A DNA stretch of 64,000 nt from assembly GCF_027923705.1 (NCBI RefSeq), contig NZ_AP026442.1, positions 132,853-196,852 of the forward strand. The letters run 5' to 3'. The DNA comes from Cellulomonas sp. NTE-D12 (GTDB lineage Bacteria; Actinomycetota; Actinomycetes; Actinomycetales; Cellulomonadaceae). Under the pieces are notes generated by a model. That model made no database searches and was not told the DNA's origin. It saw only the letters and a list, made by a program, of their open reading frames with translations. Positions 11,998 through 34,556 of the stretch are shown in pieces (within the stretch, counting starts at the first letter, position 1; every line of letters starts with the position of its first letter). Position numbers and translations under genes: made by a program.

Positions 11998-12068
11998 GCG
12001 GGTGTAGTTCAATGGTAGAACTTCAGCTTCCCAAGCTGAGAGCGCGGGTTCGATTCCCGTCACCCGCT
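11998..12068 (+). tRNA. tRNA-Gly (anticodon CCC)
   Basis: GCGGGTG-TA-GTTC-AATGGTA-GAAC-T-TCAGC-TTCCCAA-GCTGA-GAGC-GCGGG-TTCGATT-CCCGT-CACCCGC-T folds as a cloverleaf with the anticodon loop TTCCCAA. CCA is not encoded. Confidence 0.85.
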
Positions 12069-12070
12069 CC
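12026..12070. repeat. attL core: 45-bp direct repeat (3' half of tRNA-Gly), identical to 28685-28729
   Basis: GCTTCCCAAGCTGAGAGCGCGGGTTCGATTCCCGTCACCCGCTCC is found identically at both positions by eye. Confidence 0.8.
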
Positions 12071-12138
12071 GCGTTTTCGCAGGTCAGGGCCCCACAGTGG
12101 CTCTGTCGGACCTCCTTGAGACCCTCTGCTGGTCGGCT

Positions 12139-12158
12139 CGTGCCTATACGTGCCTTAA
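12139..12158. promoter_or_regulatory. tandem 10-mers CGTGCCTATA-CGTGCCTTAA; candidate integrase arm-type sites (attL side)
   Basis: Seen directly. The same decamer family recurs as an inverted pair next to attR (28555-28582). Confidence 0.35.
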
Positions 12159-12172
12159 AGAGAGGTCCGGCC

Positions 12173-13537
12173 ATGCCTACCCGACACCATCGACGTGTAT
12201 CCGGCACCGTGCGGCGGCTCCCCAGCGGGAGATGGCAGGCCCGGTACACCGGACCGGACGGCGCGCAGCGCGCGGTCGGGGTCTATCCGACGAAGGCGGA
12301 GGCCGACCAGGCGCTCGCCTTCGAGATCTCCGAGATTGCCCGCGGCACCTGGCGGGACCCGCGGCGCGGGGACCAGCCGCTCGCGGACTTCCTGCGGACC
12401 TGGATCGCGACCCGCGCCGATCTGGCCCCGAGCACCCGTGCGCTGTATGAGCGGATGTTCACGCAGTGGATCGATGCGGACGTGCCGCTGGGCGACCTGT
12501 CCCGCAGCGTCTCGCGGCAGACGGTCCGGCTCGGCGAGCGCACCCTGGCGTCGATCGGTCCGGCCGACATCCGGGAGTGGGACGCCGCCGTTCTGGCCGA
12601 GGCGCGACGGCGGGCGGGGGCTCGGTGGACGAAGGCGAGCGTCACGCCGGAGCGGGTCAACAAGGCGATCCGGACGTGGGCTGCCGAGCAGGGCCGGCCC
12701 GTCGCGCCCACCGGCCGGATGTCGGCGTCGCTGCGTGAGGCGTGGCTGGCCGCGACCGGGGGAGAGGTGCCGCTGGACCCGCGTGCCGAGCGGCACAACC
12801 TCGGCCACACCGAGGCGGCGCAGGCCTACCGGTTCCTGCACACCGGGCTGGCCCAGGCGGTGTCCGACGGGCTCATCCTGGCGAACCCGTGCGCGGTCAA
12901 GGGCGCGAGCCAACGCGACTCCCGGCACCGGACCGAGCGGCGGGTGCTCGCCGCCGACGAGCTGTGGGCGCTGGCCGACGCGATGCCCGAGCGGTACCGC
13001 GCCGCGGTGGTCGTGGCGTTCCTGTCCGGGCTGCGCGCCGGGGAGCTCTTCGCGCTGCAGCGCCGGCACGTCGACCTGACCAAGGGGACGCTGCGGGTCG
13101 AGCAGGCGCTCGCGCTGCCGGGGAGCGGATCGGTCTTCTCGACGACGAAGTCGCGCGCCGGCGTGCGGACGGTGGTGCTGCCGTCGGTCGCGGTCGAGGT
13201 GCTGGCGGAGCACATGGCGCTGTTCACGCCGGCGGGACGAGACTCGCTGGTGTTCGGGACCTCGTCCGGGCGGCCGGTCAGCAACGGACATCGCTCGATG
13301 ATGTTCGGACGGGCTCGGAAGACCATCGGTCGCGACGACCTGACATGGCACGACCTCCGGCACTCGGCACTGACGCTCGTCGCCTCAACGGGGGCGACGC
13401 TGCCCGAGCTGATGGAGCGGGCCGGGCACTCGACGCCGCGCGCGGCGCTGCACTACCAGCACGCCGCGGACGACTCGCAGCGGCGGATCGCCGAGCGGCT
13501 CGATGTCCTAATGGCCGTTAAGCAGCCACGTGGCTAG
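12173..13537 (+). CDS. int: tyrosine-type site-specific integrase
   Basis: An AAAGAGAGG RBS precedes the ATG at 12173. The C-terminal catalytic region reads ...RAGELFALQRRHVDL...WHDLRHSALTLVASTGATLPELMERAGHSTPRAALHYQHA (R...HxxR...Y). It lies immediately 3' of tRNA-Gly. Confidence 0.85.
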   Translation: MPTRHHRRVSGTVRRLPSGRWQARYTGPDGAQRAVGVYPTKAEADQALAFEISEIARGTWRDPRRGDQPLADFLRTWIATRADLAPSTRALYERMFTQWIDADVPLGDLSRSVSRQTVRLGERTLASIGPADIREWDAAVLAEARRRAGARWTKASVTPERVNKAIRTWAAEQGRPVAPTGRMSASLREAWLAATGGEVPLDPRAERHNLGHTEAAQAYRFLHTGLAQAVSDGLILANPCAVKGASQRDSRHRTERRVLAADELWALADAMPERYRAAVVVAFLSGLRAGELFALQRRHVDLTKGTLRVEQALALPGSGSVFSTTKSRAGVRTVVLPSVAVEVLAEHMALFTPAGRDSLVFGTSSGRPVSNGHRSMMFGRARKTIGRDDLTWHDLRHSALTLVASTGATLPELMERAGHSTPRAALHYQHAADDSQRRIAERLDVLMAVKQPRG

Positions 13538-14648: not shown

Positions 14649-14888
14649 GGGTACACCTCATTGGCCTCGGGTGGCGTCCCAAGTGTCTGCGGCGCCGAAG
14701 TAGTCAGAAGCGGGTCCTGCCCACGGGTGGGTCGGCGCCGGCCGAGGCTCGTGGTCGGCGGTTCTATGGACTTGACGCCGACCGCGCGCAACAGGCAACC
14801 GGCGCGAGGGCTGCTCCCATGCCCGAAGGCCGCGAATCATCCGCTTGGCGGGACCGCGGTCTCGCGAGTCCAACTACCGTCAGTCTCC

Positions 14889-15809
14889 GTGTGGGACGGT
14901 GAACTGGATGCGCGTCTGAGGCGCGAACTCATGGCCTGGCTGACGGTCCGGACCCACGACGGGGCTCAGCCGATCGGCACCAGTGAGCTGGCCGACTTCA
15001 TGTTCGACGGCGAGCAGTTCCGCGTGTTGGATCGCCAGCGGGGCATCACGAAACCGGCGGTTCTTCCGTCGGCTCTTAGCCTAAGAACGACGTATCGCTC
15101 ACCCGGTCAGCCGCTGCCATACGACGATCACATCGGGGACGATGGACTGGTCCGCTACAAGTGGCGCGGCGACGACGGTGAACACTGGGAGAACCGGGCG
15201 CTACGAGCCGCCATGCGCGCAGAAAGCCCGCTCGTGTGGTTCTTTGGCGTGGGACCCGCGTTGTGGCAGCCGGTGTATCCAGTATTCCTCGTAGGCGAGG
15301 AACCAGCAGAGCAGCAGTTCATTGTCGACCCTGATGTCGCGCGGGGTTTGATAACGCCAGGCTCGCGAGTGGAAGAACATCTGCGTCGATATGTCGTGGC
15401 GCAGACGCGCCGTCGTCTTCACCAGCCCGTCTTCCGTGCGACAGTTCTGCGAGCCTACGAGGGTCGCTGCGCCGTCTGTTCTCTCGCCCACCCGGAACTG
15501 CTTGATGCGGCGCACATCGTTCCCGACTCCAGCCCGCGAGGCATTGCATCCGTTCGCAACGGCATGGCCCTATGCAAGCTTCATCACTCAGCGTTCGATG
15601 CAAACATCCTCGGCATCGACCCGGACCTCAAAATCGCAATCAGACCGGATCTCTTGGCGGAGATCGACGGACCAACACTTCGCTACGGGCTCCAGGAGCG
15701 GCACGGCGAGCACCTGCGCGTACTGCCGCACGTGCGTGCGGAGCGTCCCGACCCCGAGCTGCTGGCCGAGCGGTTCGCAGTGTTTCTCGCGGAGCCGCAG
15801 GCAAGCTGA
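14889..15809 (+). CDS. SRA(YDG)-HNH endonuclease, Type IV modification-dependent restriction-like (ScoMcrA/TagI-like architecture)
   Basis: The N-terminal half GITKPAVLPSALSLRTTYRSPGQPLPYDDHIGDDGLVRYKWRGDDGEHWENRALRAAMRAESPLVWFFG aligns to the SRA/YDG-domain motifs (SL..GGY.DD.D.GD...YTG.GG ... NRAL.....PVRV.R). The C-terminus reads CAVCSLAHPELLDAAHIVPDS...NGMALCKLHHSAFDANILGI, an HNH (HNH_2) nuclease. An alternative start is the ATG at 14766. Confidence 0.55.
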   Translation: MWDGELDARLRRELMAWLTVRTHDGAQPIGTSELADFMFDGEQFRVLDRQRGITKPAVLPSALSLRTTYRSPGQPLPYDDHIGDDGLVRYKWRGDDGEHWENRALRAAMRAESPLVWFFGVGPALWQPVYPVFLVGEEPAEQQFIVDPDVARGLITPGSRVEEHLRRYVVAQTRRRLHQPVFRATVLRAYEGRCAVCSLAHPELLDAAHIVPDSSPRGIASVRNGMALCKLHHSAFDANILGIDPDLKIAIRPDLLAEIDGPTLRYGLQERHGEHLRVLPHVRAERPDPELLAERFAVFLAEPQAS

Positions 15810-15860: not shown

Positions 15861-18371
15861 ATGCAGGGGGCTGCGGAGTTGTTGATCGGCGGGTTCGCCG
15901 TCGTCGCAATGATCGCGATTGTGCGGATTCGCCATCGTGCCGCCGCGAGGCGACTGGAGGAGTTGCGGGTCGCGGCGGCTCCTTCGCTGGACGAGCTCCG
16001 CGGATGGCGAACCTCGGTTGAGACGCGCATCGACGATCTCGTCCACGAGGGTCGCTGGATCTCCCGCGACACATGGACCGACTGGACGAGGTCGGGGCCT
16101 CTCCCGGCGGCGGCGCTCCTCAAACTCGCTGGAGTGCCAGGCGCCGGCGAGGAGGCACGTCAGTCCCTCGCATTCCTCCGCGAAGAACTGGCCTCGCTCG
16201 TAGCGTCGGCGAACCAGCAGGTGCTCCGAAATGAACTCAGGGCCAGACGCGCCCTCTTCGACAGCATCGAGTCGCAGCCCCTGACCGACGAGCAGGCGGC
16301 CGCGGTGGTGACCTTCGACAACCGGGTGCAGGTGATCGCTGCCGCGGGCTCCGGCAAGACGTCGGTGATGGTGGCTCGGGCCGCATACTCGATCCTTCGC
16401 GGCTTCGTGCCTGCCGAGCGGATTCTGCTGCTGGCGTTCAACAAGGACGCCGCGACGGAACTGCAGGAACGGGTGACCACCCGGCTCGCTGCTGCTGGCA
16501 TCGCATCCGACGGATTGCGAGCCGCAACCTTCCACTCCTTCGGCCTCTCGGTGATCGGACAGGCGACTGGGCGGAAGCCGCGCCTGGCCGCCTGGCTGGA
16601 CGGTGGCGGTGACGTACAGATGGTTGGCCGGATCGTCGACGAGCTTCGTGACCGCTCCCCGTACTTCCGGTTCCGCTGGGACCTGTACCGCCTGCTGTTC
16701 GCTCGGATGGCGGACGAGCCGGGCGACGGTGAGCCGGACGCCTACAACTCAGCCAGCAAGGAGACGGGTTACCGCACCTACAACGGTGAGGTCGTCAAGA
16801 GCCAGGGCGAGCGGATGATCGCCGACTTCCTCTTCCTCAACGGCGTGCGCTACGAGTACGAGAAGCCCTACGTCTACGACGTCGCGGATGCGACGCACTC
16901 GCAGTACCGGCCGGACTTCTTCTACCCCGACATCGACGTCTGGCACGAGCACTGGGCGCTCGACCGTCACGGGAAGCCCCCGGAGGAGTTCGTCGGCTAT
17001 GCCGAAGGCATCGAGTGGAAGAAGTCGGTGCACCGCAGCCACGGCACGAGCCTGATCGAGACCACGTGGGCGACGATCCTTGACCAAACCGGCTTCCAGC
17101 CTCTGGCTGATGAGCTGAAGGCCCGCGGCTTGCCGCTGGACTGGAATCCCGACCGTCCTACCCGGGGCGCGGAACCTCTGAAGCACGAGGACCTGGCGCT
17201 GCTGATGCGCACCTTCCTCACTCACGTGAAGTCCAACTCGCTCACCAAGGAGCAACTCGAGGAGCGGCTCCAGGCGAACACGAAGGTCTCGCACTACCGG
17301 GCACAGCTCTTCCTCGGAGTGTTCTGGGAGATCTACGCGCAGTGGCAGGCTCGCCTGGCTGCTGACGACTCGATCGACTTCGAGGACATGCTCGTCCAGG
17401 CTGCCGATCACCTCGAGGCCCGCCGTGTCGACATGGGTTACGACCTCGTTCTCGTCGACGAGTTCCAAGACGCCAGCCGCGCGCGAGCTCGCCTGACCAG
17501 GGCCCTGGTGGACAAGCCGCACCGCTACCTGCTCGCCGTCGGCGACGACTGGCAGTCCATCAACCGCTTCGCCGGCTCCGACCTCTCCCTCATGACCGAC
17601 TTCGCGAACTGGTTCGGCGAGTCGAAGACGCTGCGGTTGCAGACGACCTTCCGCTCCCCTCAGTCGATCTGCGATACAGCCAGTGGTTTTGTCTCGAAGA
17701 ACACGCGGCAGTTCGCCAAGCAGGTCAGGTCGGTCCAGCCCGATTACGGGCCGCCGGTGTCGCTCGTTCGCGTTCCGCGTGCGGAAGCGGTCAGGGGAGC
17801 GGTCGCCGCAACTCTCGACGAGATCTCCCGGGGAGTCCGGGCCGGGAAGGTCCCACCGGGACTGTCGGGAGCGGTGAGAGTCGACATCCTCGGCCGCTAC
17901 CGGTTCGACCGCGACGTCATGCCGTTGCAGTCGTATCCCGGTCTGGCCGTCAGCTTCCGGACGGTCCACGCGTCGAAGGGCCTCGAGGCCGACTACGTGA
18001 TCCTGCCGAACGTGTCAGCGGGGACGTACGGCTTCCCGAGCGAAGTGGTGGACGACCCCGTTCTCTCGCTCGCCATGACCGACGCCGACCCGTACCCCCA
18101 TGCCGAGGAGCGTCGCCTGTTCTACGTCGCGCTCACCCGTGCTCGACGGGCGGTGACGATCATCGGCATCCAAGGCAAGGAGTCGAGCTTCATCGCCGAG
18201 CTGATCGCCGATCACCGCATCGAGCTCTCGCACTTGAGCGCGGTCGAGATGGCGGAAGCGTGCCCGGCATGCGGCAACGGCATCCTCGTCGTCCGACGGC
18301 ATCGGGCGACCGGCCGTCAGTTCCTCGGGTGCAACGCCTTCCCACGGTGTACCTACACGCGCAACCGGTGA
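15861..18371 (+). CDS. membrane-anchored UvrD/Rep-family SF1 helicase with inserted PD-(D/E)xK (DUF559/NERD-like) nuclease-like domain and C-terminal topoisomerase-type Zn ribbon
   Basis: There is an N-terminal hydrophobic helix LLIGGFAVVAMIAIVRI. Walker A is AAAGSGKTSVMVARA. An insert GERMIADFLFLNGVRYEYEKPY...YRPDFFYPDIDVWHEHWA lies between helicase subdomains. The DExx box is LVLVDEFQDAS and motif VI is LFYVALTRARRAVTII. The C-terminal ribbon reads CPACGNGILVVRRHRATGRQFLGCNAFPRCTYT. Confidence 0.7.
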   Translation: MQGAAELLIGGFAVVAMIAIVRIRHRAAARRLEELRVAAAPSLDELRGWRTSVETRIDDLVHEGRWISRDTWTDWTRSGPLPAAALLKLAGVPGAGEEARQSLAFLREELASLVASANQQVLRNELRARRALFDSIESQPLTDEQAAAVVTFDNRVQVIAAAGSGKTSVMVARAAYSILRGFVPAERILLLAFNKDAATELQERVTTRLAAAGIASDGLRAATFHSFGLSVIGQATGRKPRLAAWLDGGGDVQMVGRIVDELRDRSPYFRFRWDLYRLLFARMADEPGDGEPDAYNSASKETGYRTYNGEVVKSQGERMIADFLFLNGVRYEYEKPYVYDVADATHSQYRPDFFYPDIDVWHEHWALDRHGKPPEEFVGYAEGIEWKKSVHRSHGTSLIETTWATILDQTGFQPLADELKARGLPLDWNPDRPTRGAEPLKHEDLALLMRTFLTHVKSNSLTKEQLEERLQANTKVSHYRAQLFLGVFWEIYAQWQARLAADDSIDFEDMLVQAADHLEARRVDMGYDLVLVDEFQDASRARARLTRALVDKPHRYLLAVGDDWQSINRFAGSDLSLMTDFANWFGESKTLRLQTTFRSPQSICDTASGFVSKNTRQFAKQVRSVQPDYGPPVSLVRVPRAEAVRGAVAATLDEISRGVRAGKVPPGLSGAVRVDILGRYRFDRDVMPLQSYPGLAVSFRTVHASKGLEADYVILPNVSAGTYGFPSEVVDDPVLSLAMTDADPYPHAEERRLFYVALTRARRAVTIIGIQGKESSFIAELIADHRIELSHLSAVEMAEACPACGNGILVVRRHRATGRQFLGCNAFPRCTYTRNR

Positions 18372-18377
18372 CCCGTA

Positions 18378-18598
18378 CTCCTTCCCCTCCTCCTTCTCCT
18401 CCTCCTTCCTCCGTCGCCCCCTTCTCCTCCCTCACCCCCTTCTCCTCCCTCACCCCCTTCTCCTCCCTCATCCCCTTCTTCTCCCTCATCCCCTTCTTCT
18501 CCCTCATCCCCTTCTTCTCCCTCATCCCCTTCTTCTCCCTCACCCCTTCTTCTCCCTCACCCCTTCTTCTCCCTCACCCCTTCCCTTACCTCCCATCA
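18378..18598. repeat. polypyrimidine (C/T-rich on + strand) minisatellite, about 10 tandem copies of an 18-bp unit (CCCCTTCTTCTCCCTCAT and variants)
   Basis: Seen directly. The minus frame would read (MREKKG)n, but no credible gene context supports that. It lies between the helicase and DnaB-like genes. Confidence 0.8.
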
Positions 18599-18792: not shown

Positions 18793-19518
18793 ATGCATTT
18801 CGACGGCCCGATGATCGCGGGGGGTCACCCCTATGAGCTGGACGCCCTGCTCAACGCGGAGGCTCCGACGATGCTCCCGACTGGCATCGTGGCGCTCGAC
18901 GAATTCACGGGCGGGATCGAGCGGGGCTCTCTGTGGGCGATCTCAGGCCTTGCCGGTATCGGCGTCAGCGGCCTCGCTTTGGCCCTCGCCGCCAACGCCG
19001 CGTCCGACGGCGACGTCATCGTCTGCAACGGCCACATTCCGTCACGTGTGCTCGCGCGTCGCCTCGCCGCGCTCGCCGGCAAAGAGCGACGACTTCGGGT
19101 CGCATCCTGGTTCAGCCTGCTACCGGAACCGCCCGACGATCTGGGTGACGGCACTCTCGAACAGGCGGACCTGGTCGTCGTGGACACCTGGGACGAGACG
19201 TGGCATGCAGCAACGTGGCCGGCGACTCGTACCGAGCTCACCCGCCGGCTTCGCTGGCTCCGACATCTCGCGCGCGACAACGGCACAGCCATCGTTCTGA
19301 CATCTCGCATGCCACAGGCCCGGAGCGACGATGTCGTGGGCTGGATGGCCGACGCGTTCGACGACGCGGCGGACGTCTGCATCGCGATCACCGCGATGGA
19401 GGACGCCCGCTTCGGAGCCCCGATCGCGGCGCGCGCGATCGTACGAAGCCGCAGCGTTGGACGGAGAGCATTTCGACTTGCAGGCGGGAGCGTGCCCCGG
19501 CTGACCCCCGAGCCGTGA
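18793..19518 (+). CDS. DnaB-C/RecA-fold protein with degenerate Walker A (pseudo-ATPase)
   Basis: LDEFTGGIERGSLWAISGLAGIGVSGLALALAANAASDGDVIVCNGHIPSRVLARRLAAL follows the DnaB C-terminal-domain pattern LDxxTGGhxxGxLhhhAuRPGMGKTxhALNhAxNxA....hhFSLEM. However GIGVSG replaces GMGKT (no P-loop lysine), and NGHI replaces SLEM. Confidence 0.5.
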   Translation: MHFDGPMIAGGHPYELDALLNAEAPTMLPTGIVALDEFTGGIERGSLWAISGLAGIGVSGLALALAANAASDGDVIVCNGHIPSRVLARRLAALAGKERRLRVASWFSLLPEPPDDLGDGTLEQADLVVVDTWDETWHAATWPATRTELTRRLRWLRHLARDNGTAIVLTSRMPQARSDDVVGWMADAFDDAADVCIAITAMEDARFGAPIAARAIVRSRSVGRRAFRLAGGSVPRLTPEP

Positions 19519-20301: not shown

Positions 20302-20612
20302 GGACTCGCCTCGTCGCATGTTGTAGCCGCGCTGCACACGTCCTCACGTGGGGACCTCACGCGCCTGTCACCGGCTGACCGATAGACGACCCGATAGACG
20401 GCCATGTCACCGAGATGTCACCGGCCGGATGTCACCGGTTTGTCTATCGGTCTGTCTATCGCTGCTGAGGATCGTCGCGCGCGTGCCACGACCTCCGCTG
20501 CCTTCGTCGTCCGCGACGCCCTCCGGTCATCCGCTCGCCGTCGCGTGTTGCTCGTCGTCCCGCACTCCCGCTTCTAGGGGGGCCACACCGTGGCGCCCCT
20601 CGAGAGGGGGTG
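20302..20612. repeat. about 310-bp relaxase leader region with iterons (2x CGATAGAC direct, 2x GTCTATCG inverted, 3-4x ATGTCACCG); candidate oriT/regulatory region; copy A
   Basis: It is about 90% identical to 34557-34858 (copy B). Internal short repeats were seen directly. Confidence 0.6.
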
Positions 20613-20619
20613 CGTCGCG

Positions 20620-23532
20620 ATGCTGGCGATCGCCAAGCTGACGGTCGGCGACGGGTACGAGTACCTCTCGCGCCAGGTTGCGACCGGTGACATCGAGATG
20701 TCCCGCAGCCAGGCGCTGGCCGCCTACTACGCCGCGTCGGGCACGGAACAGGGCGTGTGGCTCGGCCGCGGCCTGGAGGGTCTGGCCGACGTGCGTCGCG
20801 GCGACCCGGTCACCCGAGAGGCGATGACCCGCCTGTTCCGCGACGGTCGCGACCCGTCGACCGGGGACGCGCTCGGCATCCCGTTCGACGCGCTGCACGT
20901 GGGCCGGGGCAAGCCCGTCGCCGGCTTCGACCTCGTCTTCACCGTGCCCAAGTCCGCCTCCGTGCTGTGGGCGCTCGGAGACGCGGCCACCCGCGAGGCT
21001 GTCGTCGGAGCGCACCGCAGCGCGCGGGCCCAGGCGCTGACGTTCCTCGAGGACAAGGCGATCCGGACCCGCGTCGGGGCCGGCGGGTCGCGCCAGGTGC
21101 GGACCCTCGGGGTGGTGGCGGCGGGGTTCGAGCACGTCGACTCGCGGCTGAACGACCCGAACCTGCACACGCACCTGGTGATCGCCAACAAGGTGCAGAC
21201 CCCGGATGGGACGTGGCGGGCGCTGGACGGGCGGACGCTGCTGCAGGCCACGGTCTCCGCCAGCGAGCTGTACGACGGGTTCCTTGCCGACGAGCTGAGC
21301 CGGCGGCTGGGGGTGAGGTGGGAGCTGCGCGACCGCGGTCCGCGGCGAAACCCGACGTTGGCGCTGCAGGGCCTGTCCGACGAGGTGCTCGACCTGTTCT
21401 CCCGCCGCGGCGCGCAGGTGGACGCCGCCCAGCAGGCGTGGGAGACGACGTTCGTCCTGAAGCATGGCCGCACGCCGGACCCGGTCGAGGTCACCAAGGC
21501 CCGCGGGCTGCTGACCCGCTCGACCCGCCCGGCGAAGGTGCTGCGGCCGCTCGGAGAGCTGTTCGAGGAGTGGGCCAACCGCGCTCGGGCGCTGACCGGG
21601 CTGGAGCCGCGGGACCTGGCCGCGCGGGCACTGGTCGGGGACTACGGGCGGAGCCTGCACGTGCACGACGTGGCCGGGCCGATGCGCGCCGCTCTGGTGG
21701 ACCAGGTGCTTGCGGACGTGCAGGGTCGTGCCGCCGTCTTCAGCACCTGGACGCTGACCGCGGCCGCGGCGCGCGCCACGCGGGTGCTGCCGATGGCCTC
21801 GCCCGACGAGCGGATCGCGCTGGTCGGAACCCTGGTCACCGCGGCGGCGGGGTGCTGCGTGCGGCTGGACGACGGGCAGGTCCGCCGGATAGGGGAGGAG
21901 AAGTTCACCACCCCGGCGATCCTCGCGGCCGAGCAGGAGCTGTTGAACCGGGCTATGGCGCCGACGGGCCTCGGAGTTCCGCATCCGGTCCAGATCGCGC
22001 GGCAGCTGGCCCGCTACCCCGGCTTGAGCGAGGACCAGCGCCGGGCGGCGGCCGCGGTGCTCGGGTCCGGGCAGGTGATCGACACCGTGGTCGGCCCGGC
22101 CGGGTCGGGCAAGACGACCACGCTGCGGGCGGTGATCGGCGCCTGGCAGTCGGTCTACGGGTCGTCGGTGATCGCCCTGGCGCCGTCGGCGACGGCAGCG
22201 CACGTGCTCGGCGAGGCGCTCGGGATCCGCGCCGAGACCACGGCCAAGTGGCTGTTCGAGCAGCCCCGGAACGACGAACGAGCGGCCGAGGCGCGCGAGC
22301 TGGCGGCCCGGTTGCCGCTGACGCCGACTGAGGCGAGCGACCAGCTCGAGGCGCGGATCGTCGACCTGATGTCGCAGGTGCAGGCATGGCGGCTGTCCCG
22401 CGGGCAGCTCGTCGTGCTCGACGAGGCGTCCCTGGCCGACACGCCCACGCTGGCCACACTCGCCGGCCAGGCGCAGGACGCCGGCGCCAAGATCGTGCTG
22501 GTCGGCGACCCGGAGCAACGGCCCGCCGTCGGCCCCGGCGGCGGGTTCGGCATGCTCGTGCACCGGCACGCCACCGCGCAGCTGACCGCGCTGCACCGGT
22601 TCACCCAGCCGTGGGAGGCCGCTGCCGTCCTGCAGATCCGCGCCGGCGACGCCCGCGCCATCGCGGTCTACCGGTCGCAGGGCCGGATCACCGTGGGGGC
22701 GCCCGACGAGGTCCTGGACACCGCCGTGCTCGCCGCCGGGCAGGACGCGGTCGCGGGGAAGGTGGTGCTGCTGCAGGCCGCCGACACCCGCACCGTCCAC
22801 GAGCTCAACGCCCGCGCCCACGCCGCGGCGGTCCTGGACGGCCGCGCCCGCCGCGACGGCGGTGTCCCACTGGCCGACCAGACCGTGGCCACCGTGGGGG
22901 ACCGGGTGGTGACCCGGCACAACGACCGCCGGCTGCGCACCACCGACGGGTTCGTCCGCAACGGCGCGCTGTGGGACGTGACCGCCACCGCGCCCGACGG
23001 GTCGCTGACCGTCCGACCCGCCGACCATCGGGACCAGCCAGGTGCCGACGTCCGGCTGCCGGCCGGCTACGTCCGCGAGCACGTCGAGCTCGGCTACGCC
23101 ACCACCACCGCCCGCTCCCAGGGGCGCACCGTCGACACCACCCACACCGTCGTCAGCGCCGCGATGGCCCGCGAAGACCTCTACGTGGCGGTCACCCGCG
23201 GCCGCGACCACAACCAGCTCTACGTCCCAACCGGTCCGTTCGACGCCGACTGCCCACCCGGCCCGTCCCGACGTCAGGAGGCCGACGAGACGCTGCGCAC
23301 CGTCCTGGCCACCAACCGCATCCCGGCCACCGCGACCGAGACGTGGGCCGCGAACCACCCGGGGGAACCGGTCCCGGTGCCATCGCGGGTGCCGACATGG
23401 CGACCCGAGCCCGTCGTCGTCGGCGGTGCCGAGCGTCGCCCGGTCCAGCCGCGGCGCGCGGCACCGCCCGCCGCCCTGCCACCGCCGCCGGTCCGGCCTG
23501 CCCACGCCCTCGACCGCTCACTCGGCCGCTGA
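20620..23532 (+). CDS. traA: MobF/TrwC-family conjugative relaxase-helicase (TraA-like)
   Basis: A GAGAGGGGG RBS precedes the ATG at 20620. The N-terminal relaxase domain reads MLAIAKLTVGDGYEYLSRQVATGD...AAYYAASGTEQGVWLG...HTHLVIANK. The C-terminal RecD-like helicase carries Walker A VVGPAGSGKTTTLRAV. The protein is about 970 aa. Confidence 0.85.
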   Translation: MLAIAKLTVGDGYEYLSRQVATGDIEMSRSQALAAYYAASGTEQGVWLGRGLEGLADVRRGDPVTREAMTRLFRDGRDPSTGDALGIPFDALHVGRGKPVAGFDLVFTVPKSASVLWALGDAATREAVVGAHRSARAQALTFLEDKAIRTRVGAGGSRQVRTLGVVAAGFEHVDSRLNDPNLHTHLVIANKVQTPDGTWRALDGRTLLQATVSASELYDGFLADELSRRLGVRWELRDRGPRRNPTLALQGLSDEVLDLFSRRGAQVDAAQQAWETTFVLKHGRTPDPVEVTKARGLLTRSTRPAKVLRPLGELFEEWANRARALTGLEPRDLAARALVGDYGRSLHVHDVAGPMRAALVDQVLADVQGRAAVFSTWTLTAAAARATRVLPMASPDERIALVGTLVTAAAGCCVRLDDGQVRRIGEEKFTTPAILAAEQELLNRAMAPTGLGVPHPVQIARQLARYPGLSEDQRRAAAAVLGSGQVIDTVVGPAGSGKTTTLRAVIGAWQSVYGSSVIALAPSATAAHVLGEALGIRAETTAKWLFEQPRNDERAAEARELAARLPLTPTEASDQLEARIVDLMSQVQAWRLSRGQLVVLDEASLADTPTLATLAGQAQDAGAKIVLVGDPEQRPAVGPGGGFGMLVHRHATAQLTALHRFTQPWEAAAVLQIRAGDARAIAVYRSQGRITVGAPDEVLDTAVLAAGQDAVAGKVVLLQAADTRTVHELNARAHAAAVLDGRARRDGGVPLADQTVATVGDRVVTRHNDRRLRTTDGFVRNGALWDVTATAPDGSLTVRPADHRDQPGADVRLPAGYVREHVELGYATTTARSQGRTVDTTHTVVSAAMAREDLYVAVTRGRDHNQLYVPTGPFDADCPPGPSRRQEADETLRTVLATNRIPATATETWAANHPGEPVPVPSRVPTWRPEPVVVGGAERRPVQPRRAAPPAALPPPPVRPAHALDRSLGR

Positions 23533-24536: not shown

Positions 24537-24713
24537 TTGCAGGAAGCGCACTTAGTCGGCGTCGGCTACGAGCGGCGCCTCACACGCTGTGCGGAGGCGG
24601 TCCGCCGATCGTGGCCCGGACTGGCTGTACCGCTGCGCAATCACCTCGGCGCGGTCGATAGCGTCGATCGCCGTGAGGATGTCACCGAGCCGGTACCGGT
24701 CCGAGCGGCTCAC
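24537..24713 (-). pseudogene. truncated HepT/DUF86-type HEPN toxin (N-terminal 57 codons only, lacks Rx4-6H motif)
   Basis: The minus-strand translation from the GTG at 24713 is VSRSDRYRLGDILTAIDAIDRAEVIAQRYSQSGPRSADRLRTACEAPLVADAD*. The first 28 aa match the DUF86/HepT N-terminus (rdr..L.dIleaid.I). The GTG overlaps the MNT stop (GTGA on the minus strand). Confidence 0.45.
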
Positions 24714-25219
24714 AGTGGCACCGCCTCGGCCAGCGCCGTTTCGGCGACGTGCGGCGCCAGCGCGTCGGCCGGCGCGACGTCGACACGCTCTCCGAGAAGC
24801 ACCGAGAGGTCGTCGGCGATCGCGGCGAGCGGGAGCAGGCCGCGGGTGCGGACGTCGAGGTCGACGAGGATGTCGACGTCGGAGTCCGGGCCGTCCTCGC
24901 CGCGAGCGACCGACCCGAAGACCCGCACGTTGGAGGCGCCGTGCCGGTGAGCGACGCGGCGGACGCGCTCGCGGTTCGCGCGCAGCTTCGCCATCCGCGG
25001 TGTGCGTACGTCCAGGTGGCGTGGGGCGGCCGCGACGCTCAGCTCCAGGCGCGCTCCCATCGCCGCGAGGAGCCGGTCGAGCGTCTCGACCGATGGCGAG
25101 CTGGCACCGGCCTCATACCGCGAGACTGCCGGCTGCGAGGTGCCGGCTCGTGCCGCCAAGGCGCCCTGACTGAGGCCCGCGGCCTCGCGGCTCGTGCGGA
25201 TCAGCGTGGCGGCTTCCAC
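24710..25219 (-). CDS. XRE-HTH fused to minimal nucleotidyltransferase (MntA-like antitoxin)
   Basis: The N-terminus LSQGALAARAGTSQPAVSRYEAG is an HTH_XRE. The C-terminus VRVFGSVARGEDGPDSDVDILVDL is the pol-beta-superfamily GSxxRGxxxxxSDxDhhV motif of MNT antitoxins. Confidence 0.7.
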   Translation of the reverse strand: MEAATLIRTSREAAGLSQGALAARAGTSQPAVSRYEAGASSPSVETLDRLLAAMGARLELSVAAAPRHLDVRTPRMAKLRANRERVRRVAHRHGASNVRVFGSVARGEDGPDSDVDILVDLDVRTRGLLPLAAIADDLSVLLGERVDVAPADALAPHVAETALAEAVPL

Positions 25220-26085: not shown

Positions 26086-27327
26086 ATGGCTACCTACCTC
26101 CCGAGGCTGGTGGACGACCAGCTCGCCCGAGGCCTTCGCTCCGCGGGTGCCGTCGTGCTCGAAGGTCCGAAGGCGTGCGGCAAGACGACCACGGCGCGGC
26201 AGCAGGCCGCCAGCCTCGTGCGCCTCGATGCGTCTCCGCAGCTTCGTGCAGCCGGCCAGGTCGACCCCGGCCTGCTGCTCGCGGGGGAGACGCCCCGGCT
26301 GATCGACGAGTGGCAGCTGGTTCCTGAGGTGTGGAACGCCGTGCGTCACTCGGTCGACGACCGACAAGCCAGCGGACAGTTCATCCTCACGGGGTCCGCC
26401 ACCCCTACGGACGACGTCACGCGGCACACCGGCACGGGCCGGTTCTCCCGGGTGCGGATGTTGCCGATGTCGCTGTACGAGCAGCAACGGTCGAATGGCC
26501 AGGTGTCGCTGCGGGCGCTTCTCGACGGCGAGCCCGCCACCAGTGCGGGCAGCGACGTCGACCTGCTTGGCGTGGCGCAGCTGCTGTGCCGAGGCGGTTG
26601 GCCGGGGAACCTCGACCGGGACCTGGGGGATGCGCTCAACGCCAATCGCGACTACCTGGCCACGATCGCCGGCGCCGACATCGTCACGCTCGACGGCGTC
26701 CGCCGGGACCCCCGCAAGGTCACCGCGCTGATCTTCGCGCTGGCGCGCAACGCCGGAACCTACGTGACCAACCGGACGCTGCAGGCGGACATCACCGGCG
26801 ACGGGCAGACCCTTGCGCCCCGGACCTTGGACAACTACCTGGACGCCCTGGCGCGACTGTGGCTGTACGTCGAGCAGCCCGCCTGGGGGCAGCACATGCG
26901 GTCGTCCGCGCAGGTGCGGCGAGCGCCCAAGCGCCACCTCGTCGACCCCTCCCTCGCCGCGGCGGCGATGGGCGCCACACCTGAGGCATTGGTGGCCGAC
27001 CCCGAGACGTTCGGGCAGCTGTTCGAGAGCCTTGTGTTCCGAGACCTGTCGGTCTACGCCCAGGCCGTCGACGCTCACGTCTTCGCCTACCAGGACACCA
27101 CCGCCGAGTTCGATGCGGTCGTCGTCCGCGACGATCGCTGGATAGGGGTCGAGGTCAAGCTCTCCGGCCGCCCGGAGATCATCGACGGGGCTGCATCGAG
27201 CATGCTTCGGCTCGCCGAGCGGATGCGAACTCCGCCATCCGCGCTCGCCGTCGTGACGGCCACCGGGCCTTCCTACCGCCGAGCGGATGGCGTCGTCGTC
27301 ACCTCGATCCTCAACCTTGGTCCCTGA
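26086..27327 (+). CDS. AAA+ ATPase (AAA_14) with DUF4143 C-terminal domain
   Basis: VVLEGPKACGKTTTARQ is a Walker A and LIDEWQLVPEVWNAVR is a Walker B-like motif. It is paralogous to the minus-strand protein at 35033-36304. Confidence 0.75.
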   Translation: MATYLPRLVDDQLARGLRSAGAVVLEGPKACGKTTTARQQAASLVRLDASPQLRAAGQVDPGLLLAGETPRLIDEWQLVPEVWNAVRHSVDDRQASGQFILTGSATPTDDVTRHTGTGRFSRVRMLPMSLYEQQRSNGQVSLRALLDGEPATSAGSDVDLLGVAQLLCRGGWPGNLDRDLGDALNANRDYLATIAGADIVTLDGVRRDPRKVTALIFALARNAGTYVTNRTLQADITGDGQTLAPRTLDNYLDALARLWLYVEQPAWGQHMRSSAQVRRAPKRHLVDPSLAAAAMGATPEALVADPETFGQLFESLVFRDLSVYAQAVDAHVFAYQDTTAEFDAVVVRDDRWIGVEVKLSGRPEIIDGAASSMLRLAERMRTPPSALAVVTATGPSYRRADGVVVTSILNLGP

Positions 27328-28684: not shown

Positions 28685-28729
28685 GCTTCCCAAGCTGAGA
28701 GCGCGGGTTCGATTCCCGTCACCCGCTCC
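28685..28729. repeat. attR core: 45-bp direct repeat of tRNA-Gly 3' half
   Basis: It is identical to 12026-12070. Confidence 0.8.
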
Positions 28730-28989
28730 AGCATCTCCCCAGGTCAGAGCCAACCGGGTATCGAACTGACGGGTGGTACCTCAGCCACGAGGGATCGGGC
28801 GACGACGTCCACACGGTGATCATGTCGAAACGACCCTCGAGGATCGTGCCGTCTTGGCTCGACACGCCCAGACCGAGCGCCCTCACGACATCCTGCCCCG
28901 GGCATGTACTCGTAGCTGGTCCGGCACATCACCGCAGATCACTCCCAGCCCTGCGTTGCTCAGCGGCTCAAAGCGGTCGCAGCGCACCG

Positions 28990-29676
28990 CTAAGCCGGGG
29001 ACCGAGTCGTGATGCGCTCGATGAGATCGCCGTGACCGCGGCGCTGGAGGTGCTCTCTCAGGTAGCTTGCGTGATTTGGCAGGACCGGCGATGCGACGTA
29101 CTCCTCGAGGGCTCTCCGCTCCCGCCTCACGTCGCCCACGGCGCGGAGCACGTCCGCGATGTCGAGCGGACCCGCTGGGCTCATCCCGATGGCTGTGGCG
29201 CCGTGACTCTCGAAGGCCGCGAGCAGAGAGGCGCGGTCCTCGAACTGGGAGAGCCAGGGGAGTCCGTGACGTTCCAGTGCGACACCGGCCGCAGCGGCGG
29301 CCGATGGATCGTCCAGCATCCACCAGAAGTCCGAAGCACCGTCGCCTGTCACGAGTTGGCCGATCGTCCGTCGGAGATGACAGTCGTAGTCGTTGATCCA
29401 CGGACCACGCGGCTGGTGGCTGCGGGTCATCTCCGGCACATAGACACCGAAGTCGAGACGGAAGGACCCGTAGCGCCTCTCGCGCAGTCCCGGGACCGGC
29501 GTCCAGGCCAGCGGCTCCTTGGGTGCCATCCAGAAGTAGACGACGTGCACCATCCCGTCGCCCACCGTGCGGTTGAAGCAGTGCCCGCGCTTCCGGAAGC
29601 CCAATTCCTTGAGCGTCGGCGCGTGCCGGGTCACGATGTCCCGCATCCGCTCGGACTCCGCGGTCGGCGCTGCCAC
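28990..29676 (-). CDS. hypothetical protein (DUF4304-like)
   Basis: ...MRDIVTRHAPTLKELGFRKRGHCFNRTVGDGMVHVVYFWMAP.... The likely start is the ATG at 29646. The overlapping + ORF 28816..29715 is R/H-rich and not protein-like. Confidence 0.45.
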   Translation of the reverse strand: MAAPTAESERMRDIVTRHAPTLKELGFRKRGHCFNRTVGDGMVHVVYFWMAPKEPLAWTPVPGLRERRYGSFRLDFGVYVPEMTRSHQPRGPWINDYDCHLRRTIGQLVTGDGASDFWWMLDDPSAAAAAGVALERHGLPWLSQFEDRASLLAAFESHGATAIGMSPAGPLDIADVLRAVGDVRRERRALEEYVASPVLPNHASYLREHLQRRGHGDLIERITTRSPA

Positions 29677-29754
29677 GAGAGCGATTGTTCCGGATCGGAG
29701 CGCTTCACGTCTTGATCACTCTCGGCTCGACGTTCAGGCGCCAGAATCGGTTGC

Positions 29755-34489: not shown

Positions 34490-34556
34490 GCGGGTCACGG
34501 TGGCGACCGGGAGCGCACCGCTGAGCTGCGCGCCGGGGACATCGGCACAGCGATCG

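What the first reader, a model, noticed from the sequence alone, without database searches (positions are those of the whole stretch)
15861..18371. Unusual helicase architecture: TM anchor + UvrD core split by a PD-(D/E)xK-like insert + C-terminal Topo Zn ribbon
Walker A (AAAGSGKTS) and the DExx box (LVLVDEFQDAS) are separated by about 300 aa. That stretch contains GERMIADFLFLNGVRYEYEKPY...YRPDFFYPDIDVWHEHWA, which resembles the Vsr/DUF559/NERD restriction-endonuclease fold. The lysine of the (D/E)xK triad may be replaced (HEHW), so the insert could be a catalytically altered DNA-binding module. The single N-terminal hydrophobic helix suggests membrane tethering, which is unusual for SF1 helicases. 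The C-terminal CPACG...C..FP.C ribbon is the TopA-type zinc finger.
Basis: partly seen in the sequence, partly recalled or inferred. Interest (0 to 1): 0.6.

Follow-up and report, generated by a model that had tools for sequence, protein, structure and literature searches.

The report
Helicase IV relative with built-in nuclease
This gene encodes a DNA helicase of the helicase IV type with a nuclease-fold domain built into its middle, a zinc finger at its end and a membrane anchor at its start; the design is common in bacteria but I found no study of it, and it sits on a small mobile element among candidate anti-phage genes.

Summary
ORF 15861-18371 (+) encodes an 836-aa SF1A helicase with all motifs intact. 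Its closest named relative is E. coli helicase IV (36-37% identity; NCBIfam 341 bits, below the 543 cut-off).

- **Active site:** E317, D352 and E363 are 97-99% conserved. The canonical lysine position is always W, F, L or Y.
- **Other parts:** the C-terminal Topo-type zinc ribbon passes Pfam's threshold. The N-terminal membrane helix is conserved in the short-N subclade, which lacks the Helicase_IV_N domain seen (sub-threshold) in a long-N relative.
- **Distribution:** the design is not rare. The insert matches 2,106 cluster representatives, 87 plasmids, several phyla and one haloarchaeal plasmid. I found no description of it.
- **Context:** the gene has no conserved partner. Here it lies in a 16.7-kb tRNA-Gly integrative mobilizable element beside candidate defence genes. 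Relatives often sit near restriction systems.

Most likely it is an autonomous, ATP-driven helicase-nuclease that acts on foreign or branched DNA. Both nuclease activity and the defence role are inferred, not shown.

The parts
15861..18371 (+). Whole gene: 836-aa helicase IV-like SF1A helicase with a nested nuclease-fold domain, a zinc ribbon and a membrane anchor
   Evidence: ORF. It is 100% identical to the Cellulomonas sp. NTE-D12 protein. Pfam and NCBIfam hits. Full-length AlphaFold2 model has pLDDT 88.9 and pTM 0.82.
15873..15926 (+). N-terminal hydrophobic helix (aa ~5-22), a predicted N-out/C-in membrane anchor, followed by the basic stretch RIRHRAAARR
   Evidence: Kyte-Doolittle maximum 2.25. 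Hessa-type energy +1.2 against at least +8.3 elsewhere in the protein. In the short-N class, 38 of 45 and 31 of 40 homologues have such a helix. K+R count is 0.5 before the helix and 3.6 in the 12 aa after it.
15930..16265 (+). Helical linker (aa ~24-135); its C-terminal part aligns with E. coli helicase IV residues 140-195
   Evidence: Helices 2-63, 69-77, 84-90, 97-128 and 130-135 in the model. BLASTP block query 80-240 against HelD 140-291. W49, R65, W66 and P80 are conserved.
16281..16568 (+). Domain 1A, N-terminal half, with Walker A GSGKT (aa 163-167)
   Evidence: PF00580 stretch 141-235. Aligns with PcrA 12-100. G163 to S168 are invariant.
16608..16700 (+). First pair of 1B helices (aa 250-280), before the insert
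   Evidence: Helices 250-265 and 267-280. A low-confidence loop at 283-289 separates them from the insert.
16728..17156 (+). Nested PD-(D/E)xK-fold domain (aa ~290-432). Putative metal ligands are E317, D352 and E363. W365 sits at the canonical lysine position. H364, K387 and H391 are conserved.
17184..17363 (+). Second set of 1B helices (aa 442-501), after the insert
   Evidence: Helices 442-458, 463-472 and 478-501. Similarity to PcrA resumes at query 484 = PcrA 169.
17379..17735 (+). Domain 1A, C-terminal half, with motif II DEFQD (aa 533-537) and motif III GDDWQSI (aa 561-567)
   Evidence: D533, E534, Q536, D537 and G561 to Q565 are invariant.
17748..18215 (+). Domain 2A without a 2B domain; motifs V (KGLE, aa 706-709) and VI (VALTRAR, aa 756-762)
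   Evidence: UvrD_C and UvrD_C_2 hits. Query 660-690 stands where PcrA has residues 348-552. The region aligns contiguously with E. coli HelD 399-670.
18255..18365 (+). C-terminal C4 zinc ribbon of the topoisomerase I type (C801, C804, C824, C830)
   Evidence: PF01396, 37.5 bits against cut-off 32. Cysteines invariant or nearly so. 118 of the 120 best homologues carry PF01396.
12026..12070 (+). attL: 45-nt direct repeat formed by the 3' end of tRNA-Gly(CCC) (gene at 11998-12070)
   Evidence: tRNA. Perfect 45-nt repeat with 28685-28729 (family D4).
28685..28729 (+). attR: second copy of the 45-nt repeat. The two copies bound a 16.7-kb integrative mobilizable element that carries the helicase gene.
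   Evidence: Third-codon-position GC is lower across about 12-38 kb than in the flanks.
12116..13537 (+). Tyrosine integrase of the element
   Evidence: PF00589, E 4.8e-17.
20590..23532 (+). TrwC-type relaxase with its own helicase domain. No type IV secretion genes were seen, so the element is mobilizable rather than conjugative.
   Evidence: PF08751 E 2.3e-80 and AAA_30 E 5.1e-53.

Best explanation
**What it is (well supported).** A single-polypeptide helicase-nuclease built on a helicase IV-type SF1A motor. The 1A and 2A domains are intact and there is no 2B domain.
- A complete PD-(D/E)xK-fold domain is nested between the helices of the 1B domain. It is related in sequence to T7 endonuclease I and closest in shape to the Vsr/DUF559/I-Bth0305I group.
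- A topoisomerase-I-type C4 zinc ribbon sits at the C-terminus.
- In this actinobacterial subclade, one N-out/C-in membrane helix stands where long-N relatives have an extra N-terminal domain. That domain gives a sub-threshold Helicase_IV_N match in one relative.

**How it most likely works (inferred).**
- The motor loads on single-stranded or branched DNA and translocates 3'-5' using ATP, as E. coli helicase IV does. The zinc ribbon helps it hold DNA.
- The nested nuclease then cuts the DNA the motor handles. It would use a metal site formed by E317, D352 and E363, and a non-canonical partner (H364, K387 or H391) in place of the usual lysine.
- Because the nuclease sits inside 1B, it should lie next to the DNA passing over 1A.

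**Likely role (inferred, least certain).** An autonomous accessory gene, carried by mobile elements and defence islands, that attacks foreign DNA from phages, plasmids or their replication intermediates. The membrane anchor would place it where DNA enters the cell.
For: **Motor.**
- PF00580 E 4e-40, UvrD_C E 9e-16, best NCBIfam match helicase IV at E 1e-101.
- 36-37% identity to E. coli HelD in two blocks that flank the insert.
- All helicase motifs are invariant in 66 homologues.
- The 2B domain is absent.

**Nuclease fold.**
- Models with pLDDT 88.9 (full length) and 93.8 (insert).
- Sequence link to T7 endonuclease I: 30 of 43 members match PF05367; PDB profile E 0.009; hhalign 77% against the single sequence and 86% against the family alignment over 100 columns. 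The alignment pairs E317 with E20, D352 with D55 and E363 with E65.
- Purifying selection over 273 instances: E317 97%, D352 98%, E363 99%, H364 97%, K387 95%, H391 97%.

**Zinc ribbon and membrane helix.** for the ribbon; for the helix.

**Autonomy and context.**
- No neighbour family is shared by more than 6 of about 65 loci.
- The gene lies in a 16.7-kb att-bounded element with an integrase and a relaxase, beside PADLOC hits to HNH, PDC-S09 and PDC-S01.
- Relatives sit next to GmrSD, type I and type III restriction systems, Mrr and PLD-DEAD-DUF3427 proteins.
- Among 150 neighbouring proteins the commonest Pfam families are ResIII/DEAD, NERD, PLDc_2, Alpha-amylase and DUF3427, and PADLOC hits include type IV and type I restriction enzymes, DpdF, DrmD and JetC.
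- The insert occurs on 87 plasmids and in essentially no complete phage genomes.
Against: - No biochemical or genetic data exist for any member that I could find.
- The lysine that is part of the T7 endonuclease I active site (my knowledge of that enzyme) is replaced by an aromatic residue in every member. Catalysis is therefore not assured.
- I could not read model coordinates. The geometry of the putative active site and its position relative to the DNA path are untested.
- No PADLOC model is specific for this protein; only generic UvrD/GajB-type models hit it.
- Some relatives lie between housekeeping genes, for example cobalamin synthesis genes and sensor kinases. Many of the 150 neighbours are metabolic genes. 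The defence-island signal is therefore only moderate, and no control set was run.
- This protein's own membrane helix is only marginally hydrophobic (+1.2 kcal/mol by a simple additive scale whose values I took from memory). No dedicated transmembrane predictor was available.
Confidence: 0.55

Rival explanations
1. The nested domain is catalytically dead. It serves as a structure-specific DNA-binding module that recognises junctions, forks or mismatches and steers a pure helicase or translocase. On this reading the protein remodels or unwinds branched DNA but does not cut it.
Against: Three acidic residues at the metal-ligand positions are 97-99% conserved across relatives clustered at 50% identity. 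A pure binding module would not be expected to keep them. Vsr-type enzymes also lack the lysine and use a histidine as general base (paper PMC3239194). Here H364, K387 and H391 are 95-97% conserved and could play that part.
Confidence: 0.22
2. It is a recombination or repair helicase-nuclease, a helicase IV variant that processes stalled forks, D-loops or Holliday junctions for the cell or for the replication of the element that carries it. It is not an immunity protein.
For: E. coli helicase IV is its closest named relative. T7 endonuclease I is a junction resolvase (record annotation). Some relatives lie among housekeeping genes. In the window the gene is followed by an 18-bp repeat array and a DnaB_C-like ORF, and it lies near a relaxase.
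Against: The distribution is patchy and the gene is often plasmid-borne. It has no conserved neighbours. Restriction and other defence genes recur next to it. The relaxase of this element has its own helicase domain.
Confidence: 0.2
3. It is the helicase half of a two-gene system with the HNH_2 endonuclease encoded 52 nt upstream (about 14871-15809), in the way GajB works with GajA.
For: The two genes are on the same strand with a 52-nt gap. The HNH protein matches a PADLOC HNH model at E 4.8e-20. PADLOC GajB models hit the helicase at E 3e-39.
Against: No HNH_2 or any other gene family recurs next to the helicase in about 65 related loci. HNH is not among the 25 commonest Pfam families of the 150 neighbours. 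The GajB similarity is the generic UvrD core. No OLD/TOPRIM GajA-like gene is present.
Confidence: 0.05

Closest known systems
E. coli DNA helicase IV (HelD, b0962; NCBIfam NF008276)
   Same: Best named match: E 1e-101. 36-37% identity over domains 1A and 2A and the helical linker. SF1A motor with a small 1B domain and no 2B domain (paper PMC8655204). An Acinetobacter plasmid relative of the window protein also gives a sub-threshold Helicase_IV_N match (E 2e-4, 21.8 bits against 24.5).
   Different: Scores 341 bits against the 543-bit cut-off. Has about 255 aa where HelD has about 108, because of the nested nuclease-fold domain. Adds a C-terminal zinc ribbon. This protein has a membrane helix rather than the Helicase_IV_N domain.
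Phage T7 endonuclease I (Pfam PF05367), a Holliday-junction resolvase
   Same: The only family detectable by sequence: shared S-x-x-E, (Y/F)EYE and PDF motifs and a beta-3 glutamate. hhalign 86% over 100 columns. E20, D55 and E65 align with E317, D352 and E363.
   Different: Scores 17 bits against the 29.1-bit Pfam cut-off. K67 is replaced by W, F, L or Y. The domain is nested in a helicase and is modelled as a compact single-chain domain, whereas T7 endonuclease I is a domain-swapped dimer (paper PMC3424549). It has a 13-residue insertion after beta-3.
Vsr / DUF559 / I-Bth0305I ('EDxHD') branch of the PD-(D/E)xK superfamily
   Different: No sequence similarity to E. coli Vsr (hhalign 0.3%). 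The insert contains no cysteine, so it has no Vsr-type zinc site. The position of Vsr H64 (I-Bth0305I N208) appears to correspond to W365 here; this mapping is mine and I did not check it by superposition.
RecB / AddA / AdnB helicase-nucleases
   Same: A UvrD-like SF1A motor and a PD-(D/E)xK nuclease in one polypeptide. They are structural neighbours of the full-length model and NCBIfam hits.
   Different: In those enzymes the nuclease is a C-terminal RecB-family domain with a canonical lysine, and they work in multi-subunit complexes. Here the nuclease belongs to a different branch, is nested in 1B, and no partner gene is conserved.
RNA polymerase-recycling HelD (B. subtilis, M. smegmatis)
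   Same: SF1 motor without a 2B domain whose 1A domain is interrupted, at the 1B position, by a foreign inserted domain (paper PMC8655204). A structural neighbour (ranks 26, 39 and 47).
   Different: The HelD insert is a clamp arm, not a nuclease. NF041464 scores only 40 bits against a 419-bit cut-off. There is no secondary-channel arm.
Single-protein helicase-nuclease defence proteins (Nhi, Hhe) and Gabija GajB
   Same: The concept is the same: an SF1 helicase combined with a restriction-fold nuclease, encoded in defence islands. What I say of Nhi and Hhe rests on my own knowledge. GajB models hit the UvrD core.
   Different: To my knowledge Nhi and Hhe use Upf1/Dna2-like SF1B motors with terminal nuclease domains. 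None of the 25 best PADLOC hits is Nhi or Hhe. GajB needs GajA, which is absent here.

Membership tests
SF1A UvrD/Rep/PcrA-type helicases | Pfam UvrD-helicase and UvrD_C above their gathering scores; Walker A, motifs II, III, V and VI intact | tested here: met
   PF00580 scores 138.5 bits against 23. PF13361 scores 58.6 against 25.6. GSGKT, DEFQD, GDDWQ, KGLE and T759/A761 are invariant in 66 homologues. Foldseek best matches are UvrD, PcrA and Rep.
SF1A UvrD/Rep/PcrA-type helicases | Four-subdomain layout with a 2B domain inserted in 2A | tested here: not met
   About 30 residues (query 660-690) stand where PcrA has residues 348-552. E. coli helicase IV shares this feature.
DNA helicase IV (NCBIfam NF008276, equivalog) | Whole-protein score at or above the curated cut-off of 543 bits | tested here: not met
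   341.5 bits, E 1e-101. It is the best family hit but below the cut-off.
DNA helicase IV (NCBIfam NF008276, equivalog) | N-terminal Helicase_IV_N domain (PF12462) | tested here: not met
   No PF12462 hit in the window protein. E. coli HelD has it at E 5.6e-63. An Acinetobacter plasmid relative has a sub-threshold match, 21.8 bits against 24.5.
PD-(D/E)xK (restriction-endonuclease-like) fold | Alpha-beta-beta-beta-alpha-beta core fold | tested here: met
PD-(D/E)xK (restriction-endonuclease-like) fold | Acidic metal ligands: D at the end of beta-2 and D/E in beta-3 (plus E in alpha-1 in many families) | tested here: met
   D352 98%, E363 99% and E317 97% conserved over 273 instances. Placement follows the alignment to T7 endonuclease I. 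The 3-D geometry was not checked.
PD-(D/E)xK (restriction-endonuclease-like) fold | Lysine two residues after the beta-3 acidic residue | tested here: not met
   Position 365 is W in 70% of instances, F in 25% and L or Y in 5%; it is never K.
T7 endonuclease I family (Pfam PF05367) | Score at or above the gathering cut-off of 29.1 bits | tested here: not met
   13.5 to 17.1 bits. 30 of 43 relatives match weakly, best E 1.9e-4. hhalign probability 86%.
T7 endonuclease I family (Pfam PF05367) | Catalytic residues E20, D55, E65 and K67 (my knowledge of the enzyme; all four invariant in alignment A6) | tested here: not met
   Three of the four are kept; K67 aligns with W365.
T7 endonuclease I family (Pfam PF05367) | Domain-swapped homodimer | not testable with these tools
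   Only monomer models could be made, and coordinates cannot be read. The monomer model folds as a compact domain with pLDDT 93.8.
Vsr / DUF559 / EDxHD endonucleases | Detectable sequence similarity to the Vsr catalytic domain | tested here: not met
   hhalign of the insert profile against E. coli Vsr gives 0.3% probability. No Pfam Vsr or DUF559 hit at E up to 10.
Vsr / DUF559 / EDxHD endonucleases | Structural similarity of the catalytic domain | tested here: met
   No NERD hit in the protein or the insert at E up to 10. NERD occurs only in four neighbouring genes of related loci.
Topoisomerase-I-type C4 zinc ribbon (PF01396) | Score above the gathering cut-off and four cysteine ligands | tested here: met
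   37.5 bits against 32. C801, C804, C824 and C830 are conserved.
Single-pass membrane-anchored protein | A hydrophobic helix of about 19 residues with flanking charge asymmetry (positive inside) | tested here: inconclusive
   Kyte-Doolittle 2.25. Additive Hessa-type energy +1.2 kcal/mol for this protein, median -1.53 for its subclade, with 31 of 40 below zero. K+R count 0.5 before and 3.6 after the helix. No TMHMM or DeepTMHMM was available, and insertion itself was not tested.
Gabija (GajA + GajB) | Adjacent GajA (OLD-family ATPase-TOPRIM nuclease) | tested here: not met
   The neighbours are an HNH_2 protein and a DnaB_C-like protein. No partner is conserved in about 65 loci.

The most novel reading that the evidence does not exclude
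The membrane-anchored subclade is a single-gene immunity protein stationed at the inner face of the membrane. It would capture DNA as it enters the cell, by phage injection or as conjugative single strands. It would reel that DNA in with the helicase IV motor and cut it with a lysine-less nuclease nested in the 1B domain. This would be a new class of entry-point helicase-nuclease defence, and the soluble, long-N-terminal relatives would do the same in the cytoplasm.
Probability: 0.15. Interest if true: 0.7.

Novelty: new variant of a known kind. Interest (0 to 1): 0.5.

Why it matters
Helicase-nuclease fusions such as RecBCD, AddAB, Cas3, Nhi and Hachiman are central to DNA repair and to immunity against phages and plasmids. 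This protein belongs to a large family that is annotated only as 'UvrD-helicase domain-containing protein' or 'DNA helicase IV'.

- **Scale.** The insert alone matches 2,106 cluster representatives. It occurs on 87 plasmids, including Acinetobacter, Rhizobium/Agrobacterium and Vibrio plasmids and one haloarchaeal plasmid.
- **What is new.** The nuclease is not appended. It is nested inside the motor's 1B domain, next to where DNA passes, and its active site lacks the canonical lysine.
- **What could be learned.** If it is active, it is a compact one-protein machine for coupled unwinding and cutting, and a candidate single-gene defence system. The membrane-anchored branch would give a direct way to ask whether bacteria attack foreign DNA at the point of entry.
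- **If it turns out otherwise.** Should it be a repair enzyme, it would give the poorly understood helicase IV family a concrete biochemical activity to test.

Tried and rejected
**Family searches that gave nothing specific.**
- NERD, Vsr and DUF559 by sequence: no Pfam hit at E up to 10. hhalign of the insert profile against E. coli Vsr gave 0.3%.
- PADLOC on the whole protein: only generic UvrD/GajB/DRT-helicase models.
- Foldseek of the full-length model against the PDB was dominated by UvrD, PcrA and Rep and said nothing about the insert. That cost one of the three fold searches.

**Searches that failed or could not run.**
It worked with 10 sequences.
- The look-up of encoding contigs found no record for P0003.
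- blastn of the Acinetobacter homologue against complete E. coli genomes found no match, so there is no link to E. coli defence screens.

**Hypotheses tested and rejected.**
- A conserved partner gene, including the upstream HNH_2 gene: rejected by clustering all ORFs of about 65 loci.

**Literature.** Six searches and five papers read found no description of a nuclease nested in the 1B domain of a helicase IV/UvrD-like protein. The 'END nucleases' preprint concerns endonuclease III, not endonuclease I.

**Not possible.** I could not measure active-site geometry or the position of the nuclease relative to the DNA path, because model coordinates are not exposed.


Full report
**1. The observation**

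It is 100% identical to a protein of Cellulomonas sp. NTE-D12. RefSeq lists the 836-aa form (WP_337974185.1). The GenBank submitter's annotation (BDO40643.1, 745 aa) starts 91 codons later.

The longer form is the right one. The region upstream of the GenBank start is conserved in homologues: W49, R65, W66 and P80 are invariant or nearly so.

The quoted features check out as follows.
- Walker A lies at aa 160-168 and DEFQD at aa 533-537. They are about 370 residues apart, more than the 'about 300' reported. By my estimate from the alignments, the gap is about 190 in PcrA and about 215 in E. coli helicase IV.
- The quoted motif is at aa 316-366.
- The zinc ribbon passes Pfam's own threshold: PF01396, 37.5 bits against 32.

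**2. The helicase core**

Pfam finds UvrD-helicase, UvrD_C and UvrD_C_2. The best NCBIfam model is DNA helicase IV (E 1e-101). Its score of 341 bits is below the 543-bit cut-off, so the protein is a relative and not an equivalog.

BLASTP against E. coli HelD gives two blocks of 36-37% identity: query 80-240 with HelD 140-291, and query 495-778 with HelD 399-670. Between the blocks the query has about 255 residues where HelD has about 108.

Comparison with PcrA places this extra material in the 1B domain (PcrA 100-169). It also shows that the 2B domain is missing: about 30 residues stand where PcrA has about 204. E. coli helicase IV lacks 2B as well (paper PMC8655204).

All helicase motifs are invariant in 66 homologues. 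An active ATPase motor is therefore expected.

**3. The insert**

The full-length AlphaFold2 model is confident (pLDDT 88.9, pTM 0.82). Two 1B helices (aa 250-280) are followed by a low-confidence loop (283-289). Next comes a compact domain (aa ~290-432), and then three more 1B helices (442-501).

Modelled alone, the insert reaches pLDDT 93.8 and shows the alpha-beta-beta-beta-alpha-beta order typical of restriction-endonuclease-like proteins.

Structural comparison:
- These are followed by RAP domains, Bax1, TnsA, VRR-NUC, Hjc and many type II restriction enzymes.
- Foldseek ranks NGO0050 and I-Bth0305I first, with probabilities 0.98-0.99.

The insert is not a normal 1B or 2B subdomain. It is a PD-(D/E)xK fold.

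By sequence the picture is different.
- No Vsr, DUF559 or NERD model matches at E up to 10. A profile of 43 diverse inserts has no similarity to E. coli Vsr (hhalign 0.3%).
- The one recurring match is T7 endonuclease I. PF05367 is hit weakly by 30 of 43 members, best E 1.9e-4. T7 endonuclease I chains are the only PDB sequences found by the profile, E 0.009-0.025.
- hhalign gives 77% against the single T7 sequence and 86% (E 4.8e-6, 100 aligned columns) against a T7 endonuclease I alignment.

The alignment pairs E317 with E20, D352 with D55, E363 with E65, and W365 with K67.

**4. The active site**

Conservation over 273 domain instances from clusters at 50% identity:

| Residue | Conserved |
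|---|---|
| S314 | 97% |
| E317 | 97% |
| E334 | 97% |
| D352 | 98% |
| E363 | 99% |
| H364 | 97% |
| K387 | 95% (plus 3% R) |
| H391 | 97% |
| E400 | 95% |

Position 365, where the canonical lysine should be, is W (70%), F (25%), L or Y. It is never K.

But the strict conservation of the three acidic residues argues for a working metal site. Vsr-type enzymes also lack the lysine and use a histidine as general base (paper PMC3239194). H364, K387 or H391 could play that part here.

I put an active nuclease at about two in three and a binding-only module at about one in four or five.

**5. The N-terminus**

Residues 3-21 give the highest hydrophobicity in the protein: Kyte-Doolittle 2.25. The additive Hessa-type energy is +1.2 kcal/mol, against at least +8.3 anywhere else. 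The scale values for that calculation came from my memory.

The helix is followed by RIRHRAAARR.

The feature marks a subclade.
- Among homologues with Walker A at position 140-185, 38 of 45 and 31 of 40 have such a helix.
- These average 0.5 K+R before the helix and 3.6 in the 12 residues after it. That fits an N-out/C-in anchor with the enzyme in the cytoplasm.
- The larger class, with Walker A at 200-260, has no such helix (0 of 67). It has an extra N-terminal domain of about 90 aa instead.
- In an Acinetobacter plasmid member that domain matches Helicase_IV_N weakly (E 2e-4, 21.8 bits against 24.5).

On this evidence the membrane helix stands where long-N relatives carry a probably Helicase_IV_N-like domain. 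No dedicated transmembrane predictor was available, so I rate this as likely but not proven.

**6. How common the architecture is**

- The insert alone finds 2,106 representatives at E up to 1e-3, and 1,187 at E up to 1e-10, among 1.84 billion cluster representatives. Most of the listed full-length hits are proteins of about 850-1,000 aa with the insert at about position 330-500.
- 118 of the 120 best full-length homologues carry the zinc ribbon.
- The insert occurs on 87 plasmids. Hosts include Acinetobacter, Rhizobium, Agrobacterium, Vibrio, Pseudomonas, Hymenobacter, Phocaeicola and one Halalkaliarchaeum. Where a gene is annotated under the match it is nearly always a 'UvrD-helicase domain-containing protein'.
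- Among phage records it occurs only on four small unannotated metagenomic contigs.
- A pattern scan of one genome per species found 399 confirmed loci. They are mostly Actinomycetota, with some Proteobacteria, Acidobacteria and Myxococcota.

The design is therefore widespread. Six literature searches and the papers I read gave no description of it. That library is incomplete, so this is absence of evidence only.

**7. Genomic context**

In the window, a perfect 45-nt direct repeat links the 3' end of tRNA-Gly(CCC) (12026-12070) with 28685-28729. The two copies bound a 16.7-kb element. Third-codon-position GC is lower from about 12 to 38 kb than in the flanks.

The element contains, in order:
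- a tyrosine integrase;
- a DUF2971 gene;
- an HNH_2 endonuclease gene;
- the helicase;
- a DnaB_C-like ORF;
- a DUF6308 gene;
- a TrwC relaxase with its own helicase domain;
- an HTH-nucleotidyltransferase gene;
- an AAA_14/DUF4143 ATPase gene.

No type IV secretion genes were seen, so this is an integrative mobilizable element. Three of its genes match PADLOC models: HNH (E 4.8e-20), PDC-S09 and PDC-S01.

Relatives of the helicase lie in varied places.
- Next to GmrSD and a DEAD/MZB helicase.
- Next to a type III restriction-modification pair.
- In a region rich in PLD-DEAD-DUF3427, SNF2 and UvrD-like genes.
- Next to Mrr, PLD-DEAD-DUF3427 and a type I R subunit.
- But also between cobalamin synthesis genes and sensor kinases.

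Clustering all ORFs of about 65 loci found no neighbour family present in more than 6 loci. The gene therefore has no obligate partner, and that includes the upstream HNH_2 gene.

Among 150 proteins encoded within two genes of the helicase in about 38 loci:
- The commonest Pfam families are ResIII/DEAD/Helicase_C (6), NERD (4), PLDc_2 (4), Alpha-amylase (3) and DUF3427 (3); GmrSD_N has 2.
- PADLOC hits include type IV restriction enzymes (4), PbeA (6), type I restriction enzymes (3), DpdF (2), DrmD, JetC and PsyrT.
- Many neighbours are metabolic genes.

I read this as a moderate association with defence islands. I did not run a control set.

**8. Mechanism**

*Shown.* An intact helicase IV-type motor. 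A confidently modelled, strongly conserved PD-(D/E)xK-fold domain nested in 1B. A zinc ribbon. A subclade-specific hydrophobic N-terminal helix. An autonomous, mobile, patchily distributed gene.

*Inferred.*
- The motor translocates 3'-5' on single-stranded DNA, as helicase IV does.
- The nested domain cuts the DNA the motor is handling. In UvrD and PcrA the 1B domain lines the single-strand path next to 1A (my knowledge of those structures). A nuclease placed there would meet the translocated strand or the junction. That makes this a one-chain analogue of RecB or AddA.
- The zinc ribbon adds a DNA grip. In topoisomerase I such ribbons bind single-stranded DNA (my knowledge).
- The membrane helix localises the enzyme.

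*Biological role.* My estimates are defence against incoming or replicating foreign DNA about 0.45, recombination/repair or element maintenance about 0.2, and a non-cutting, junction-recognising helicase about 0.2.

**9. Verdict**

- The core is helicase IV-like.
- The sequence kinship is with T7 endonuclease I, while the shape is Vsr-like.
- NERD is not supported.
- The architecture is common rather than rare.

It is a new variant of a known kind, the helicase-nuclease fusions. Interest is moderate: a large uncharacterised family with an unusual nested layout, a lysine-less active site and a membrane-anchored branch. There is no functional evidence yet.

Noticed in passing
window 18378-18590: A tract of about 210 bp containing almost only C and T on the + strand starts 7 nt after the helicase stop codon. 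It holds 10.7 tandem copies of the 18-bp unit CTCCCTCACCCCCTTCTT at 93% match. It lies between the helicase gene and the DnaB_C-like ORF (18793-19518). It could be iterons of a replication origin or a triplex-prone polypurine/polypyrimidine tract.
   Followed up: partly
window 12026-12070 and 28685-28729: A perfect 45-nt direct repeat of the tRNA-Gly(CCC) 3' end bounds a 16.7-kb integrative mobilizable element. The element has an integrase and a TrwC relaxase but no secretion genes were seen.
   Followed up: yes
window 20312-20610 and 34564-34851: About 300 bp just upstream of, and running into, the start of the relaxase gene are repeated 14.2 kb downstream at 90-95% identity. The region is a probable oriT/promoter and includes the 12-bp unit CGGTCTGTCTAT x2.2. 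The second copy lies outside the att-bounded element, with no relaxase gene identified next to it. It may be an orphan oriT or the remnant of a second element integrated in tandem.
   Followed up: partly
window 28730-36304: The DNA just past attR also looks accessory. It encodes a DUF4304 protein, a DUF4238 protein (to my knowledge a known defence-associated family), a 739-aa SPFH/Band_7 protein, a bPH_6 protein and a second AAA_14/DUF4143 ATPase. Third-codon-position GC is lower there than in the core genome.
   Followed up: partly
window 12116-13537 (+): The tyrosine integrase carries a hit to the Lsr2 DNA-binding domain (PF23359, E 1.5e-7, aa 182-213) ahead of its catalytic domain. That is an unusual combination.
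   Followed up: no
window ~14871-15809 (+): An HNH_2 endonuclease gene ends 52 nt upstream of the helicase gene (Pfam E 1e-12; PADLOC HNH E 4.8e-20). About 175 aa of its N-terminal region are unassigned and its true start is uncertain. It is not a conserved neighbour of the helicase family.
   Followed up: partly
window 24710-25219 (-) and 26086-27327 (+): Two more cargo genes of the element match candidate defence families in PADLOC. The HTH plus nucleotidyltransferase protein matches PDC-S09 at E 4e-29. The AAA_14/DUF4143 ATPase matches PDC-S01 at E 1.4e-60.
   Followed up: no
window 18793-19518 (+): A 241-aa ORF has a weak DnaB_C/KaiC-like match (E 7e-6, below the cut-off). The P-loop position reads GLAGIGVSG, with no lysine or serine/threonine pair, so it may be a degenerate RecA-fold ATPase.
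   Followed up: no
window 15861-16133: The GenBank annotation of this genome (BDO40643.1, 745 aa) starts the helicase at an internal GTG. That omits the conserved membrane helix and long helix that RefSeq (836 aa) includes.
   Followed up: yes
L007:971-4363 (Acinetobacter seifertii plasmid pAS47-2): Near the plasmid copy of this helicase family lie a second, 1,130-aa UvrD-domain protein, a multiubiquitin-domain protein and a sigma-70 factor. This may be another conflict system.
   Followed up: no
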